Origin: a virus
Virus record (IMG/VR): IMGVR_UViG_3300045988_126550
Coordinates: 64,001 to 128,000 of that record
Direction: 5' to 3' (one strand)
DNA length: 64,000 bases
Shown here: piece after piece, positions 10,379 to 12,556 of the stretch
How positions within the stretch are numbered: the stretch's first letter is position 1
Layout of the letters: the number at the start of each line of letters is the position of its first letter
Made by a program: the position numbers and the translations under genes
The notes under the pieces: generated by a model
Database searches by the model: none
Seen by the model: the letters and a program-made list of their open reading frames with translations, nothing else
Told to the model about the DNA's origin: nothing

Positions 10379-11926
10379 ATGTCTTTTATGAATGCAGTAA
10401 AGAATACTTTGAATGAGGAGTTTAATTACTCGGTAACTGAAAATGGCGCCCTTGGGTATCGTACTTCTGGCAAAGAACTGACTGACCTAAACTTTGCCGT
10501 TGCCTCTATGCGCGGTATGAACGAGAAGACCATCTATGATAAGTTCACGAAGGTTTATTTCGAAGACAAGATGATGGCTTTACGTTGGTTATTTTTCGCA
10601 AGAGATGTTCGTGGCGGTCTTGGCGAGAGACGTTTGTTCAGAACGGTTCTTAAAAATATGGCAAAGGACGACCCCAATACTGTTAAACGTCTTGCCTGTC
10701 TGGTGAGCGAGTATGGCCGTTATGATGACCTGTGGTGTCTGTTTGGAACGGATGTGGATGGTGTTGTTTTCGATATCATTAAGAAGCAGCTTTCTGATGA
10801 CATCGCAAATATGGCAGAGAATAAACCCGTATCTCTTCTTGCTAAGTGGCTCCCTTCCGTAAATGCTTCTTCTACAAGAACTAAGATGGACGCAAGATAT
10901 ATTTGCAAGAATCTTGGAATGACAGAGAGTAAGTATCGTAAGATTCTTTCTTCTCTGCGTTCTTACATTGACATTGTAGAAAGTAAGATGTCTGCAAAGA
11001 AGTGGGAAGAAATTAAGTACGAAACGGTTCCTTCTCGTGCAAATCTAATCTACAACAACGCTTTCCTCCGTAACGATGAGGAGCGTCGCAGAGAGTATCT
11101 GAGCAAGCTTGAAAAGGGTGAAACTAAAATCAATGCAGGAACTTTGTTCCCCCATGACATCGTTCACAAATATTGCAGTGGACGTATGTATAGCTATGGC
11201 GTTGGTAAGTACGATGCAACTATTGAATCTCTTTGGAAGGCTTTGCCCAATACAGTAAACGAGTGTGGGAACACTATTGTGGTTGCAGATGGCTCCGGTT
11301 CTATGTACTGCAATGTTGGCGGAAATACTTGTGTTACGGCACTTGAAGTTGCAAATGCACTTGCAATTTACTTTGCAGAGCATTCTTCTGGTGACTTTAA
11401 GGATAAATACATTACTTTCTCTAGCAGACCTCAGTTGGTTGATTTTAGTCAGTGCGATTCTCTAAGAGATAAGCTACGTGTTGCATATAGTCATTACGAG
11501 TGTTCAAATACAAACATTGAAAAGGTGTTTGATTTGATTCTTACTACTGCGGTGAATGGTCATATGAAGCAGGAGGATATGCCTAAGAATGTACTGATTA
11601 TTTCAGACATGGAGTTTGACTTTTGTGCAACTTGTGGTGGTTCCAATGGATGGAGTCTTAATAGACCTAGTGCAAGACTTTTTGATGTAATCAAGAAGCG
11701 TTTCGAGGATGCTGGGTATCAGATGCCTAGACTGGTCTTCTGGAATGTAAATTCTCGTACTGGCACTATTCCTGTAAAGGAGAACGACCTTGGTGTTGCT
11801 CTTGTTAGTGGTTTCTCCACTAATGTTTGCAAGATGGTCATGAGTGGTAAGACTGATCCTTACGAGTGCCTTGTTGAGACGCTTATGAGTGAGAGATATG
11901 ATGCAGTTGAGGCTGCGTTAAAGTAA
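10379..11926 (+). CDS. vWA-domain protein of the DUF2828 / TROVE-like (Ro60-related) type
   Basis: ATG 10379 after aaatggagg. N-terminal TENGALGYRTSGKELTDLNF is the signature I associate with DUF2828. MIDAS motif VVADGSGSM in the C-terminal half. ~515 aa, like Ro60/Rsr. Confidence 0.55.
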   Translation: MSFMNAVKNTLNEEFNYSVTENGALGYRTSGKELTDLNFAVASMRGMNEKTIYDKFTKVYFEDKMMALRWLFFARDVRGGLGERRLFRTVLKNMAKDDPNTVKRLACLVSEYGRYDDLWCLFGTDVDGVVFDIIKKQLSDDIANMAENKPVSLLAKWLPSVNASSTRTKMDARYICKNLGMTESKYRKILSSLRSYIDIVESKMSAKKWEEIKYETVPSRANLIYNNAFLRNDEERRREYLSKLEKGETKINAGTLFPHDIVHKYCSGRMYSYGVGKYDATIESLWKALPNTVNECGNTIVVADGSGSMYCNVGGNTCVTALEVANALAIYFAEHSSGDFKDKYITFSSRPQLVDFSQCDSLRDKLRVAYSHYECSNTNIEKVFDLILTTAVNGHMKQEDMPKNVLIISDMEFDFCATCGGSNGWSLNRPSARLFDVIKKRFEDAGYQMPRLVFWNVNSRTGTIPVKENDLGVALVSGFSTNVCKMVMSGKTDPYECLVETLMSERYDAVEAALK

Positions 11927-11932
11927 TGAAAA

Positions 11933-11993
11933 AAGACTCGAACAGCAACTATTAAAGGATTTGACTGCTAATCAAAATTACCTAAAGAGTCTT
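11933..11993 (+). repeat. hairpin unit 4 carrying an ACAGCAA motif
   Basis: Stem AAGACTC (11933-11939) / GAGTCTT (11987-11993); ACAGCAA at 11942-11948. Confidence 0.55.
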
Positions 11994-11994
11994 G

Positions 11995-12020
11995 TTTAAA
12001 GTGCTGGGCATCACTTTAAA
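11995..12020 (+). other. 9-bp hairpin (TTTAAAGTG/CACTTTAAA) with no U-tract; a processing or weak terminator structure
   Basis: Perfect 9-bp stem with an 8-nt loop, 15 nt upstream of tRNA-Leu. Confidence 0.4.
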
Positions 12021-12035
12021 GCTGCCCCGTGATAT

Positions 12036-12167
12036 GCGGGTATGGTGGAATCGGCAGACACAAGGGACTTGCTGATAGCCAGTGCTTTGGTAGGGGCAGC
12101 ACCTACAATCAGTACCAAAAATCCCTCGGAGAAATCCATGCGAGTTCAAATCTCGCTACCCGCACCA
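12036..12167 (+). tRNA. class II tRNA-Leu(UAA) with a 47-nt insertion in the anticodon (between U34 and A35); CCA encoded
   Basis: GCGGGTA-TG-GTGGAATCGGCAGACAC; anticodon stem AGGGA (12063-12067) / TCCCT (12122-12126); loop ends CTT...AAAA; variable arm CGGAGAAATCCAT; T arm GCGAG-TTCAAAT-CTCGC; TACCCGC-A-CCA. Confidence 0.75.
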
Positions 12168-12308
12168 TGACCTTGGCAAGTCATTAAACTACCACAGCTA
12201 TAAGCTGATAACCACATACTACGGACGAACTGCGTGTGGCTCCCAAGTGGATGAAGGTTTGATCGTCTGGCAGGTTGGCGCTCCTGTCGAAGTTAAAAGC
12301 GCGTTATA

Positions 12309-12377
12309 TCCTCTTTTAGTGTAAAGGTTGCACAGCTCCGCCGAGGAGTAGGAACGGTTCGATTCCGTGCAGAGGAG
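12309..12377 (+). ncRNA. tRNA-like element with a truncated anticodon arm
   Basis: T arm AACGG-TTCGATT-CCGTG. Acceptor-like TCCTCT/AGAGGA. D-like GTGT-AAAGGTT-GCAC. Stem GCTCC/GGAGT closes only a 5-nt loop. Flanked by GCGCT/AGCGC hairpins. The alternative 8-bp pairing GCGCTCCT (12278-12285) / AGGAGCGC (12373-12380) is mutually exclusive with the acceptor-like stem. Confidence 0.4.
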
Positions 12378-12556
12378 CGCTTGACACGGCGCTGGTGTTA
12401 TCTCTGGCATACGGATTACTAGTATGCAAAGCATTTACTTCGGTGGAAAATGCGGGGCAGAACAGAACCTTGGGTCTGTCACTTACACATCCATCCAAGT
12501 GTGGTTTGTGCTGAGGCCGGTGATGGGGCGGTCGTTTATAATACCCCATTCAATAT

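What the first reader, a model, noticed from the sequence alone, without database searches (positions are those of the whole stretch)
10379..12393. vWA/TROVE-like protein embedded among tRNA-like RNAs: a possible phage Ro60/Y-RNA-type RNP
The 515-aa protein combines an N-terminal region of the DUF2828 type (TENGALGYRTSGKELTDLNF) with a MIDAS-containing vWA domain (VVADGSGSM). That overall plan matches Ro60/Rsr. I have not verified the link between DUF2828 and TROVE; it is my recollection and inference.

In bacteria, Rsr genes sit next to Y RNAs whose effector module mimics tRNA (YrlA), and they often lie near RNA-repair genes. Here the gene is flanked by structured RNAs. Downstream, 12309-12377 is a tRNA-like element with a good T arm (GGTTCGATTCC) and a D-like arm but only a 5-nt loop on its anticodon stem. 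It is flanked by GCGCT/AGCGC helices and has an alternative 8-bp pairing (GCGCTCCT / AGGAGCGC).
Basis: inference. Interest (0 to 1): 0.7.

Follow-up and report, generated by a model that had tools for sequence, protein, structure and literature searches.

The report
Phage Ro60-like protein with ACAGCAA RNAs

Summary
Bases 10379-11926 encode a 515-aa protein (Pfam DUF2828 + DUF7788, complete MIDAS), and 12309-12377 is a tRNA-shaped element with a 5-nt "anticodon" loop.

The Ro60 reading of the protein holds at fold level. A pLDDT-92 model has only Ro60/TROVE structures as significant PDB matches, over its full length (TM 0.51-0.58). It is not a Pfam TROVE member. It belongs to a large phage family (PHROG 850) that is already annotated "Ro-like RNA-binding protein" and has already been proposed to pair with Y RNAs in a Listeria phage.

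It occurs only in close relatives and matches no Y-RNA model.

The conserved RNA neighbour is different: a strand-specific ACAGCAA motif held in covarying stem-loops. It is 30- to 40-fold enriched within 1 kb of these genes in 81 loci from phages of unrelated hosts. The window has four stand-alone copies hugging the gene and two built into CCA-less tRNAs just upstream.

An independent DNA-pattern scan found such insert-bearing tRNAs next to a Ro-like gene in 38 of 41 fully flanked cases.

Rnl1-, Pnkp- and Thg1-like genes lie downstream.

Best reading: a Y-RNP-like phage complex acting on tRNA. Binding is inferred, not shown.

The parts
10379..11926 (+). Ro60-fold RNA-binding protein gene (515 aa). 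N-terminal helical DUF2828 domain plus C-terminal vWA/MIDAS domain (DUF7788). Member of PHROG 850.
   Evidence: for the family assignment. AF2 model. Foldseek hits to Ro60. MIDAS residues invariant.
9888..10011 (+). tRNA-shaped RNA 'A' carrying an ACAGCAA module (hairpin 9931-9946, motif 9949-9955) in its anticodon loop. No 7-nt anticodon loop can be reconstructed and no CCA is encoded.
   Evidence: Rfam tRNA model 49.8 bits with a 58-nt insert. Model R1 gives 50.3 bits with the hairpin and motif aligned. Alignment with relatives.
10020..10136 (+). tRNA-Asn(GUU)-shaped RNA 'B'. An insert of about 47 nt splits the 5' strand of the anticodon stem between nt 28 and 29. The insert is a linker, a covarying 7-bp hairpin (10053-10080 region), ACAGCAA at 10076-10082 and a second linker. 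No CCA is encoded.
   Evidence: Covariation: 97.8% of cells paired and 22 of 28 pairs compensatory. Model R1 gives 110.9 bits. The element is conserved 130-1000 nt upstream of Ro-like genes.
10143..10198 (+). Stand-alone module with a variant motif (GCAGCAA at 10152-10158), enclosed by the stem AAGGCAC / GUGCCUU.
   Evidence: Read from the sequence. Same architecture as the family.
10207..10276 (+). Stand-alone ACAGCAA module (motif 10217-10223), enclosed by an 8-bp stem GAGACGC(U) / (G)GCGUCUC.
10291..10342 (+). Stand-alone ACAGCAA module (motif 10300-10306, stem AAGGCAC / GUGUCUU). It ends 37 nt before the start codon, so it would lie in the 5' UTR if the mRNA starts upstream of it.
11933..11994 (+). 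Stand-alone ACAGCAA module beginning 7 nt after the stop codon (motif 11942-11948, stem AAGACUC / GAGUCUU). Its loop holds an anticodon-arm mimic (UUGA CUGCUAA UCAA, loop at 11965-11971).
   Evidence: The same loop sequence (ACUGCUAAU) occurs in the third module of Mycobacterium phage Jobypre.
12036..12164 (+). tRNA-Leu(UAA)-type gene with a different insert of about 51 nt in the anticodon loop. It encodes CCA and is probably a true intron-bearing tRNA. Not part of the ACAGCAA family.
   Evidence: L001 has an insert-free tRNA-Leu(taa) at the same place.
12278..12394 (+).
   Evidence: Conserved with covarying flanking hairpins in L004 and a few close relatives only. It sits where L001 and L004 have tRNA-Tyr.
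12557..14288 (+). Remainder of the same-strand tRNA array: Leu-CAA, Ile-UAU, Gln-UUG, Gly-UCC and Lys-UUU, all with encoded CCA. A further ACAGCAA lies at 12945-12951 inside a conserved 440-nt non-coding stretch.
19908..21023 (+). T4 Rnl1-type RNA ligase gene.
   Evidence: Pfam RNA_lig_T4_1, E 1.1e-15.
22718..23623 (+). 301-aa P-loop kinase, likely a polynucleotide kinase of the T4 Pnkp type. The Pnkp assignment is an inference from size and domain.
   Evidence: Pfam AAA_33, E 1.2e-24, and KTI12.
25651..26484 (+). Thg1-like 3'-5' nucleotidyltransferase gene (tRNA 5'-end repair or addition).
   Evidence: Pfam Thg1, E 2.3e-25.

Best explanation
The gene encodes a Ro60-fold RNA-binding protein: a helical ring domain closed by a vWA/MIDAS domain. 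It belongs to the widespread phage DUF2828/DUF7788 lineage (PHROG 850).

It is made from within the phage's tRNA operon. I infer that it binds a cognate family of small structured RNAs encoded immediately around it on the same strand. Each RNA has a 7-9-bp stem with an A.G closing pair and a single-stranded ACAGCAA 0-3 nt after the 5' strand of the stem. The loop of about 40 nt often carries an anticodon-arm mimic.

In this phage four such modules stand alone (10143-10342 and 11933-11994). Two more are built into CCA-less tRNA bodies just upstream (9888-10136). This gives tRNA-like partners analogous to YrlA-type Y RNAs.

The resulting complex most likely works in tRNA surveillance, repair or protection during infection. 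It would act together with the phage's Rnl1-like ligase, Pnkp-like kinase and Thg1-like enzyme, or by recruiting a host exoribonuclease as Rsr/Y RNA does.

Shown here: the fold, the family membership, the RNA structures with their covariation, and the genomic linkage.

Inferred: that the protein binds these RNAs, and what the complex does.
For: Fold:
- AF2 model with pLDDT 92.1 and pTM 0.91.
- The only PDB hits at E <= 1e-3 are Ro60/TROVE, over the full length, with TM 0.51-0.58.
- Even the poor first model hit only D. radiodurans Rsr (E 1.6e-6).
- The family profile ranks Ro60 and TROVE proteins as the top four PDB sequences.
- hhalign against 29 real Ro60/Rsr proteins aligns the vWA half colinearly (E 8e-5).

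Family and context:
- PHROG 850 'RNA-binding protein', E 3e-140.
- 710 phage records carry a homologue.
- 57 of 80 viral loci have tRNAs within 6 kb, all on the same strand.
- FelixO1-like EC6 has the gene directly in front of its tRNA array.
- Listeria LMSP-25 has a tRNA array, RtcB and an RNA ligase around the gene.

RNA partner:
- ACAGCAA on the gene strand occurs at 2.50 per kb upstream and 0.89 per kb downstream.
- The comparison rates are 0.10 per kb in the gene, 0.22 per kb in the far flanks and 0.02-0.08 per kb on the other strand.
- 75 of 81 loci have a copy within 1 kb.
- 61.5% of 278 copies are enclosed by a stem of 7 bp or more, against 7.7% in shuffles.
- In the window, 6 of 20 copies fall in 9949-12951, all on the + strand and non-coding.
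- The insert-bearing tRNA structure has 97.8% of cells paired and 22 of 28 pairs with compensatory changes.
- In a protein-blind DNA scan, 38 of 41 insert-tRNAs with 2.5 kb on both sides have a Ro-like gene in the locus. The gene usually starts 130-1000 nt downstream, and the proteins are down to 29% identical.
- In Mycobacterium phage Jobypre three ACAGCAA modules follow the gene, and the middle one encloses a YrlA-like permuted tRNA domain (39.3 bits, E 2e-5).

Other support:
- Repair genes in the window.
- Literature: the Listeria phage homologue CKA15_055 has Rsr as its top HHpred match, and abundant non-coding transcripts upstream of it were proposed to be Y RNAs (PMC12282133).
Against: - No binding data exist for any member of this lineage.
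- The helical domain shows no detectable sequence similarity to TROVE, so convergence or very deep divergence cannot be separated.
- TM scores of 0.5-0.6 indicate the same architecture, not a close match.
- The motif is not the GNCGAA/CGAA motif of known bacterial and phage Y RNAs.
- Stand-alone modules are less tightly linked to the gene. Only 21 of 39 fully flanked matches of one stem variant have the gene within the locus, and the far flanks are mildly enriched. The modules could therefore belong to tRNA operons in general.
- Module-bearing tRNAs keep proper anticodon loops of several identities. This fits real tRNAs with an intron as well as it fits tRNA mimics.
- The Listeria homologue was found in purified virions, which hints at a different or additional role.
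Confidence: 0.6

Rival explanations
1. The ACAGCAA inserts are a new kind of small tRNA intron, and the stand-alone copies are related or derived elements. The Ro-like protein would be their splicing or maturation cofactor. It would hold the pre-tRNA while an endonuclease cuts, and the phage Pnkp/Rnl1 pair (RtcB in other phages) would rejoin the exons.
For: - The insert sits at one fixed site (nt 28/29) in tRNAs of many identities (Asn, Lys, Thr, Ile, Arg, Gln, Gly), and these keep canonical 7-nt YU-NNN-R-N anticodon loops.
- The split anticodon stem covaries.
- The linkage to the gene is near-obligate.
- An RNA ligase and a kinase are in the window, and Listeria phage LMSP-25 has a 'tRNA splicing ligase' next to the gene.
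- Close relatives differ only in the anticodon: GUU in the window, UUU in L001.
Against: - No ribozyme or intron family matches.
- No splicing endonuclease was identified in the window ORFs searched.
- Insert-tRNAs almost never encode CCA (4 of 98), while the window's six canonical tRNAs all do.
- The discriminator base is highly variable.
- tRNA A has no reconstructable anticodon loop.
- Most modules stand alone outside tRNAs.
Confidence: 0.2
2. The modules are cis-acting processing, stability or operator signals of the tRNA operon and of the Ro-like mRNA. They could be RNase entry or stop sites, or a translational operator in the 5' UTR. They would not be stable partner RNAs, and the protein's real substrates would lie elsewhere (damaged host or phage RNAs).
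For: - One module lies 37 nt before the start codon and another 7 nt after the stop codon.
- Modules also occur away from the gene in tRNA regions.
- Every tRNA in the array is preceded by a shared ATAT(G) leader, which suggests organised processing.
Against: - There are three to seven tandem copies per locus.
- One 7-mer is conserved across phages of Actinobacteria, Firmicutes and Proteobacteria and gut phages, whose host RNases and promoters differ.
- Abundant discrete non-coding transcripts occur upstream of the homologue in Listeria phage CKA15.
- In Jobypre a module is fused with a YrlA-like domain.
Confidence: 0.12
3. One reading: the tRNA-like element at 12309-12377, with its flanking helices, is the Y-RNA-like partner of the protein.
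For: - It has a tRNA-like core (U8, D arm with GG, T arm UUCGAUU) and a non-decoding 5-nt loop.
- Its ends are extended by helices that covary with L004.
- Its arm order (D arm, stem-loop, T arm) is that described for D. radiodurans Yrn1.
- A GUCGAAG string (GNCGAAG) lies at 12286-12292.
Against: - It has no YrlA hit. The only weak YrlA hit (23.6 bits against a threshold of 69) spans the junction of two adjacent tRNAs, an artefact type that the YrlA authors themselves describe.
- The element occurs only in close relatives and at varying distance from the gene: 380 nt in the window, 1.4 kb in L004, absent in L001.
- The GUCGAAG belongs to a leader hairpin that precedes an ordinary tRNA-Tyr in L001 and is absent in front of the L004 copy.
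- The fold energy is not better than chance.
- It has no ACAGCAA motif.
Confidence: 0.08
4. The protein is not an RNA-binding protein. It would be a vWA/MIDAS adaptor with a helical domain, serving protein-protein functions such as a virion-associated or ejected factor or a chaperone cofactor. The RNA linkage would then reflect only shared early or middle expression with the tRNA region.
For: - The Listeria homologue was detected in purified virions with 57% coverage.
- DUF2828/DUF7788 proteins also occur in giant viruses and eukaryotes.
- Only the vWA half shows sequence similarity to Ro60.
- The LeBron homologue is moderately toxic when overexpressed.
Against: - The full-length fold match is to Ro60 and to no other vWA protein.
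- The strand-specific motif enrichment peaks at the gene borders.
- The reciprocal linkage is 93%.
Confidence: 0.08

Closest known systems
Ro60/Rsr with Y RNAs (D. radiodurans Rsr-Yrn1-PNPase 'RYPER'; Salmonella and Mycobacterium Rsr with YrlA/YrlB)
   Same: - The architecture is a ring-forming helical domain plus a vWA/MIDAS domain.
- The partner-RNA candidates are encoded next to the gene on the same strand, several per locus.
- Each is a terminal stem with a conserved single-stranded motif at its top.
- At least one partner carries a tRNA-like domain.
- RNA-repair genes lie in the neighbourhood.
   Different: - There is no Pfam TROVE match, and the helical part is shorter (about 290 aa against about 350).
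- The motif is ACAGCAA, not GNCGAA.
- In the window the tRNA-like partners are not circularly permuted. They keep open acceptor ends and a full anticodon arm.
- The locus is embedded in a phage tRNA array.
phiRo60 of Thermus phage phiLo with Yrl1/Yrl2 (PMC12135203; PDB 9kop)
   Same: - It is a phage-encoded Ro60-fold protein. 9kop is the second-best structural hit (E 2.9e-7).
- Two Y-like RNAs lie just upstream of the gene.
- Binding and PNPase modulation were shown experimentally there.
   Different: phiRo60 is a bona fide TROVE protein and its RNAs carry the CGAA motif. For the DUF2828 lineage nothing has been tested.
Phage DUF2828 'Ro-like RNA-binding proteins': SEA-PHAGES annotation, PHROG 850, Listeria phage CKA15_055, mycobacteriophage LeBron gp53
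   Same: - This is the same protein family (33-38% identity, full length).
- The placement by tRNA genes and RNA ligase/kinase genes is the same.
- A Y-RNA partnership has already been hypothesised for CKA15.
   Different: In the papers I could search, the partner RNAs were not defined. The ACAGCAA modules and the insert-bearing tRNAs are not mentioned there and are not in Rfam 15.
Phage T4 Pnkp/Rnl1 tRNA repair against anticodon nucleases
   Same: Rnl1-type ligase and a 301-aa P-loop kinase are encoded in the same genome region as a tRNA array. Many modules display anticodon-loop mimics such as CUUUUAA.
   Different: T4 has no Ro-like protein in this pathway. A link between the modules and anticodon nucleases is speculation.
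Protein-spliced tRNA introns at non-canonical positions (archaea)
   Same: A short insert interrupts a tRNA at a fixed non-canonical site in the anticodon stem.
   Different: This is a bacterial virus. I did not test for a bulge-helix-bulge motif, and no splicing endonuclease was found. The same module also exists outside tRNAs.

Membership tests
Ro60/Rsr (TROVE + vWA) | Match to the Pfam TROVE model PF05731. True orthologues carry PF05731 + PF25045. | tested here: not met
   There is no TROVE hit even at E <= 10. 120 real Rsr/Ro60 proteins all carry PF05731 + PF25045. hhalign of the two family profiles aligns only the vWA half (prob 61%, E 8e-5).
Ro60/Rsr (TROVE + vWA) | Overall fold: a helical-repeat domain followed by a vWA domain, superposable over the full length. 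| tested here: met
   The model has pLDDT 92. Foldseek against the PDB gives 1yvr, 9kop, 2i91_B and 9nep_A at E 1e-7 to 7e-7, TM 0.51-0.58 and 536-586 aligned columns. The next hits are vWA-only at E > 6e-3.
Ro60/Rsr (TROVE + vWA) | Complete MIDAS motif (DxSxS ... T ... D) in the vWA domain. | tested here: met
   D304, S306, S308, T378 and D410 are invariant in 73 homologues. They align with Ro60 DVSASM.
Ro60/Rsr (TROVE + vWA) | Adjacent same-strand Y RNA: a terminal stem with a conserved (GN)CGAA motif. | tested here: inconclusive
   No CGAA-type Y RNA was found. The single GUCGAAG (12286-12292) is part of a generic tRNA leader hairpin. An analogous but different family (stem + ACAGCAA) is present and strongly linked to the gene.
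Ro60/Rsr (TROVE + vWA) | Binds Y RNA on the ring surface and threads misfolded RNA 3' ends through the central hole. | not testable with these tools
   This needs biochemistry or a structure. Model coordinates could not be inspected for a central cavity.
Phage DUF2828/DUF7788 'Ro-like RNA-binding protein' (PHROG 850) | Pfam DUF2828 + DUF7788 and a PHROG 850 match over the full length. | tested here: met
   DUF7788 E 1e-45 and DUF2828 E 2.3e-34. phrog_850 E 3.1e-140, covering residues 4-508.
Phage DUF2828/DUF7788 'Ro-like RNA-binding protein' (PHROG 850) | Encoded in or beside a same-strand tRNA array. This is an empirical feature of the family found here. | tested here: met
   The window has tRNA-model hits on both sides of the gene. 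57 of 80 related loci have tRNAs within 6 kb, all on the same strand.
YrlA (Rfam RF02553) | Covariance-model score at or above the gathering threshold of 69 bits. | tested here: not met
   The only hit is 23.6 bits at 9957-10070. It spans the T arm of one tRNA and the D arm of the next. There is no hit at 12309-12377.
tRNA (for the element 12309-12377) | tRNA covariance model at 29 bits or more, or an ARAGORN call, with a 7-nt anticodon loop. | tested here: not met
   It is not called by either tool. The loop is 5 nt in the window and 6 nt in L004. [quoted passage not shown]
ACAGCAA insert-bearing tRNA (family defined here, model R1) | A tRNA body with an insert after nt 28 that contains a covarying hairpin followed by ACWGCAA. 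| tested here: met
   Window 10020-10136 scores 110.9 bits and 9888-10011 scores 50.3 bits. Note that the window sequence was one of the 30 used to build the model.

The most novel reading that the evidence does not exclude
ACAGCAA stem-loops are the cognate RNAs of a second, TROVE-less lineage of Ro60-fold proteins found in hundreds of cultured phages, including FelixO1-, P100- and Twort-like phages, Campylobacter and Vibrio phages and mycobacteriophages.

They come as free mini-RNAs that display anticodon-arm mimics and as modules spliced into otherwise intact tRNAs.

The complex would then be a phage device that handles anticodon arms. It could act as a decoy or shield against host anticodon nucleases, as a platform for Pnkp/Rnl1/RtcB repair, or as the machinery that excises a new class of tRNA intron.

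That would make it a new Y-RNA class, and possibly the first protein-dependent short tRNA intron system in bacterial viruses.
Probability: 0.35. Interest if true: 0.85.

Novelty: new variant of a known kind. Interest (0 to 1): 0.62.

Why it matters
Ro60 and its Y RNAs are a long-studied RNA-surveillance system, also a human autoantigen. What the bacterial and viral versions are for is still unclear.

The protein here belongs to a family present in at least 710 sequenced phages, several of them used in biocontrol and therapy. It is annotated only as "RNA-binding protein".

A defined, easily mutated 7-nt motif and stem-loop as the candidate ligand turns a vague annotation into a direct experiment: gel shift, RIP-seq, or deletion in FelixO1, P100 or a mycobacteriophage.

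tRNAs that carry the same module at a fixed site in the anticodon stem raise a second testable question. Either bacterial viruses have a short, protein-dependent tRNA intron, or they make tRNA-shaped decoys.

Either answer bears on how phages with large tRNA arrays survive host tRNA-cleaving defences.

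Tried and rejected
1. Single-sequence and shallow-profile searches of the PDB found nothing useful.
2. The first AF2 model, built from 67-93% identical sequences, was poor (pLDDT 65). A 73-sequence alignment down to 42% identity fixed it.
3. Megablast of 9800-14300 against cultured phages found only a 40-nt tRNA-Ile match. The window is not close to any cultured phage.
4. The Rfam YrlA hit at 9957-10070 was rejected as a tandem-tRNA artefact.
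6. GUCGAAG at 12286-12292 was considered as a Y-RNA Ro-binding motif. I rejected it because the same leader hairpin precedes an ordinary tRNA-Tyr in L001 and the motif is missing in front of the L004 copy.
7. Profile-profile alignment to TROVE, with 3 and then 29 real Ro60/Rsr sequences, aligned only the vWA half.
8. A first, permissive stem search had a control rate too high to be informative. It was replaced by a stricter search with shuffled controls.
9. I could not reconstruct a 7-nt anticodon loop for tRNA A under any exon boundary.
10. Reading ACAGCAA as a promoter was considered unlikely. The hosts span four phyla and the flanking stems covary.
11. Reading the modules as intrinsic terminators was considered unlikely. 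The stems are followed by G(U/A) rather than a U tract.
12. Literature searches for DUF2828 and for ACAGCAA together with Ro60 or Y RNA found nothing relevant. The library lacks most subscription journals.

Full report
**1. The observation**

The ORF list shows a + strand frame from a TTG at 10340 to 11926. The quoted peptides are there: TENGALGYRTSGKELTDLNF at residues 20-39 and VVADGSGSM at 301-309.

Pfam assigns DUF7788 (E 1e-45, residues 298-491) and DUF2828 (E 2.3e-34). The generic VWA_2 model is only a weak hit (E 0.046), and TROVE does not appear even at E <= 10. The MIDAS residues D304, S306, S308, T378 and D410 are invariant in 73 homologues down to 42% identity.

The RNA element at 12309-12377 is also as described:
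- a T arm with UUCGAUU;
- a regular D arm (U8, GUGU/GCAC stem, loop AAAGGUU);
- a 5-bp stem with a 5-nt loop where the anticodon arm should be;
- GCGCU/AGCGC hairpins on both sides;
- the alternative pairing 12278-12285 with 12373-12380.

The element's fold energy is not better than shuffles (z = 0.05). ARAGORN and the Rfam tRNA model do not call it.

**2. The protein has the Ro60 fold**

A single-sequence search and a shallow-profile search of the PDB found nothing. A profile of 73 diverse homologues placed human and Xenopus Ro60 and two "TROVE domain" entries as the top four of 177,635 PDB sequences. These hits were weak (E 0.02-0.26) and aligned on the MIDAS region at colinear positions.

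The first AF2 model (alignment of 67-93% identical sequences, pLDDT 65) already had D. radiodurans Rsr as its only significant structural match (E 1.6e-6). The second model (73 sequences) has pLDDT 92.1 and pTM 0.91.

The second model's only PDB matches at E <= 1e-3 are four Ro60/TROVE structures:

| PDB entry | What it is | E-value | TM |
|---|---|---|---|
| 1yvr | Xenopus Ro | 1.3e-7 | 0.52 |
| 9kop | deposited as 'Crystal structure of the Trove domain' | 2.9e-7 | 0.51/0.56 |
| 2i91_B | Ro with misfolded RNA | 4.6e-7 | 0.58 |
| 9nep_A | human Ro60 | 7e-7 | 0.57 |

Each aligns over 536-586 columns. All other hits are vWA-only domains at E > 6e-3.

In the viral structure library the best matches are DUF2828/DUF7788 proteins of phages and giant viruses. 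[quoted passage not shown]

The Xenopus sequence matched 1yvp_A at 538 of 538 residues. A database search with Rsr returned proteins that all carry PF05731 + PF25045. I then compared the two family profiles. Only the vWA halves align (prob 61%, E 8e-5; similar with three sequences).

The protein therefore works like Ro60 architecturally but is not a member of the TROVE family as Pfam defines it. Homology of the helical domain is neither shown nor excluded.

**3. The family is large and already labelled Ro-like**

The word-index search saturated at 8000 hits. The exhaustive search found 6911 clusters at 50% identity. PHROG 850 "RNA-binding protein" matches at E 3e-140.

tblastn finds full-length homologues (33-42% identity) in 710 phage records. 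These include Felixounaviruses, Listeria P100-like, Staphylococcus, Campylobacter, Vibrio, Bacillus and Enterococcus phages and 95 mycobacteriophages. They are annotated variously as "RNA-binding protein", "DUF2828 protein" or "Ro-like RNA binding protein".

A 2025 multi-omics paper on Listeria phage CKA15 reports several things for the homologue CKA15_055 (PMC12282133):
- its best HHpred match is Rsr;
- it was detected in purified virions;
- it lies downstream of the tRNA region;
- abundant non-coding transcripts upstream of it may be Y RNAs.

Other papers give related context:
- The LeBron homologue gp53 is moderately toxic when overexpressed, and that phage also has an RNA ligase and a polynucleotide kinase (PMC13148394).
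- Bona fide phage Ro60 with Y RNAs is established for Thermus phage phiLo (PMC12135203).
- YrlA RNAs were reported next to Ro60 genes in 22 phages (PMC4201824).

**4. Context in the window**

The gene sits inside a same-strand tRNA operon. Upstream are two tRNA-model hits with 56-58-nt inserts (9888-10011 and 10020-10136).

Further downstream on the same strand are:
- an Rnl1-type RNA ligase (19908-21023);
- a 301-aa P-loop kinase of Pnkp size (22718-23623);
- a Thg1-like enzyme (25651-26484).

The same region also holds DNA-metabolism genes.

The tRNA association holds across the family. 57 of 80 IMG/VR loci have tRNAs within 6 kb and 36 within 1 kb, and every tRNA is on the gene's strand. 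In EC6 the gene directly precedes the tRNA array. In Listeria LMSP-25 it lies between a tRNA array (with near-threshold ROOL and drum RNA hits) and genes for RtcB, an HD phosphohydrolase and an RNA ligase.

**5.

Blast and a pattern scan of 2.9 million viral contigs found the 12309-12377 element only in close relatives, in two variants with 5- and 6-nt loops. The other pattern matches are ordinary tRNAs that share the D arm.

Its distance from the gene is not fixed. It is 380 nt in the window and 1.4 kb in L004, and the element is absent in L001, whose protein is 92% identical. In the window it occupies the slot where L001 and L004 have tRNA-Tyr, behind a shared leader hairpin.

The flanking hairpins covary between the two variants (AGCGC/GCGCU against CGGCU/AGCCG). 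The element is therefore a real, selected, tRNA-derived RNA without a decoding loop and without encoded CCA. Nothing links it specifically to the protein. There is no YrlA match, and the only weak YrlA hit in the region is a tandem-tRNA artefact of the kind the YrlA authors warn about.

**6. What is conserved next to the gene**

Blast of the upstream region showed that tRNA B with its insert is the non-coding element that recurs 250-550 nt upstream of the gene in loci whose proteins are only 57-65% identical.

Alignment shows a tRNA body whose anticodon-stem 5' strand is split after nt 28. The insert consists of an A-rich linker, a 7-bp hairpin, the motif (A)ACWGCAA and an 8-12-nt linker. The rest of the stem and a normal 7-nt anticodon loop follow.

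On 30 diverse examples the full structure is supported as follows:
- 97.8% of cells are paired, against 65% in shuffles and 35-45% in slid controls;
- 22 of 28 pairs have compensatory changes;
- all 7 pairs of the insert hairpin and both pairs of the 5' exon part of the anticodon stem covary.

The anticodons vary (Asn, Lys, Thr, Ile, Arg, Gln, Gly) but keep U33 and a purine at 37.

I then ran a protein-blind scan of viral contigs with the DNA pattern TAGAGC-N-ACWGCAA-N-GGTTCRA. It returned 104 true insert-tRNAs. Of the 41 with at least 2.5 kb on both sides, 38 have a Ro-like gene in the locus, always on the same strand and usually starting 130-1000 nt downstream. The linked proteins are down to 29% identical to the window's. 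Only 2 of 19 spurious pattern matches have the gene.

Insert-tRNAs almost never encode CCA (4 of 98, against 118 of 363 ordinary tRNAs in the same loci).

**7. The motif also stands alone**

In the window 6 of 20 ACAGCAA copies lie in 9949-12951, all on the + strand and all non-coding. About 0.25 would be expected there.

Across 81 non-redundant loci (35-73% identity, including EC6, LMSP-25 and mycobacteriophage Jobypre), the density on the gene's strand is shown below. The opposite-strand range is the lowest and highest of the per-region values.

| Region | ACAGCAA per kb |
|---|---|
| 1 kb upstream of the gene | 2.50 |
| 1 kb downstream of the gene | 0.89 |
| Inside the gene | 0.10 |
| Far flanks | 0.22 |
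| Opposite strand | 0.02-0.08 |

75 of the 81 loci have a copy within 1 kb.

The structure around the motif is also conserved:
- 61.5% of 278 copies are enclosed by a stem of 7 bp or more whose 5' strand ends 0-3 nt before the motif (7.7% after shuffling). For 8 bp or more the figures are 41% and 2.4%.
- The median enclosed length is 48 nt.
- The stems differ in sequence between phages but share the outline 5'-A[A/U]AGRCRC ... GYGYCU[U/A]G-3' with an A.G closing pair.
- 36% of copies are followed within 45 nt by a hairpin with a 7-nt YU-NNN-R-N loop, against 6% in shuffles. About a quarter of these are T loops of insert-tRNAs. The rest are anticodon-arm mimics such as CUUUUAA, CUGUUAA and CUGCUAA.

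The window has stand-alone modules at 10143-10198 (variant GCAGCAA), 10207-10276, 10291-10342 (37 nt before the start codon) and 11933-11994 (7 nt after the stop codon, with the mimic CUGCUAA).

The same architecture is visible by eye in EC6 (AGACCG-UUU-ACAGCAA...CGGUCUGG), LMSP-25 (three copies about 60-340 nt upstream of the gene) and Jobypre (three copies right after the gene). In Jobypre the middle module's stem (GGACCCC/GGGGUCC) encloses ACAGCAA plus a permuted tRNA domain that the Rfam YrlA model recognises (39.3 bits, E 2e-5, below threshold). This ties the ACAGCAA modules to Y-RNA-like RNAs.

Stand-alone modules are less exclusive than insert-tRNAs. For one stem variant, 60 of 117 matches have the gene in the locus (all on the same strand, mostly within 20-550 nt), and 21 of 39 fully flanked ones do.

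No Rfam 15 family covers these elements, and no paper in the searchable library mentions the motif with Ro60 or Y RNA.

**8. Interpretation**

The best-supported reading is a Y-RNP-like system. A Ro60-fold protein would have ACAGCAA stem-loops as its cognate RNAs. Some are free, and some are fused to tRNA bodies, as YrlA fuses a Ro-binding stem to a tRNA-like domain.

The fold, the RNA structures and the linkage are shown. Binding and function are inferred. The anticodon-arm mimics, the tRNA array and the Rnl1/Pnkp/Thg1 genes point to tRNA surveillance, repair or protection.

The main rival is that the inserts are a new protein-dependent tRNA intron with the Ro-like protein as cofactor. This reading is not exclusive of the first.

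**9. Verdict**

- It is wrong about which RNA, and the Ro-like nature of the protein family is not new.
- The part that appears new is the ACAGCAA module family and its insertion into tRNAs. I rate the whole as a new variant of a known kind.

Noticed in passing
window 12036-12164; also L005 6738-6874, L006 8607-8745, L034 8778-8915: A tRNA-Leu(UAA)-type gene with encoded CCA carries a conserved insert of about 46-51 nt in the anticodon loop (core AGCCAGYGCUUUGGUAGGGGCAGCACCUA). The insert is unrelated to the ACAGCAA module and far too short for a group I intron. L001 has an insert-free tRNA-Leu(taa) at the same place. This may be a second kind of small phage tRNA intron.
   Followed up: partly
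L001 7893-7949 and L004 7776-7832 (relatives of the window); L001 7687-7893: HDV-like (F. prausnitzii type, 'theta') ribozyme hits lie just under threshold (42.4 and 40.5 bits against 44), immediately 3' of tRNAs in sister phages. In L001 the preceding tRNA appears to carry an insert of about 140 nt. No such ribozyme hit was found in the window itself at E <= 10.
   Followed up: partly
window 12634-13076: A 440-nt non-coding stretch between tRNAs is conserved at about 85% in L001, L004 and L006 and partly in L067. It has no Rfam match and contains one ACAGCAA (12945). It may be a larger structured RNA of the tRNA operon. For comparison, Listeria phage LMSP-25 has a near-threshold ROOL hit (88.5 bits) and a drum RNA hit in the equivalent region (L088 3473-4024 and 986-1084).
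   Followed up: partly
window 13077-13172 and 12557-12633: tRNA-Ile(UAU) has a 22-nt variable arm, which is normally a feature of Leu, Ser and Tyr tRNAs. tRNA-Leu(CAA) lacks the long variable arm expected of a Leu tRNA. The identity of both is doubtful.
   Followed up: no
L003/L004 6546-6617: Sister phages carry a tRNA with anticodon UCA (called tRNA-SeC by ARAGORN; 63.6 bits as a plain tRNA) directly after the Ro-like gene. This is a possible UGA suppressor and would hint at stop-codon recoding in this phage group.
   Followed up: no
window 8194-9363: An adenylosuccinate-synthetase homologue matches PHROG 1211, a phage adenylosuccinate-synthetase-type family (E 4e-65). From memory, this may be the PurZ-type family. 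PurZ-type enzymes make 2-aminoadenine (Z) DNA. Together with the nearby dCMP-deaminase-like, NT5C and Thy1-like genes, this suggests modified DNA bases.
   Followed up: no
window 7337-8200: A second MIDAS-containing protein (LALDVTGSM; PHROG 2971, no Pfam hit) lies 2.2 kb upstream of the Ro-like gene. The same order (Band_7, unknown, this protein, PurA-like) is kept in L001. Mycobacterium phage Jobypre also has a Band-7-like gene upstream of its Ro-like gene.
   Followed up: no
window 14315-14809 and 13944-14213: An HNH endonuclease gene and a small conserved ORF are embedded in the tRNA array. Every tRNA in the array is preceded by a shared ATAT(G) leader.
   Followed up: no
window 40796-63893 (- strand): Four very large ORFs (593, 1638, 2839 and 2141 aa) sit on the opposite strand. 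I did not analyse them. Relatives of the window come from contigs of 130-178 kb.
   Followed up: no
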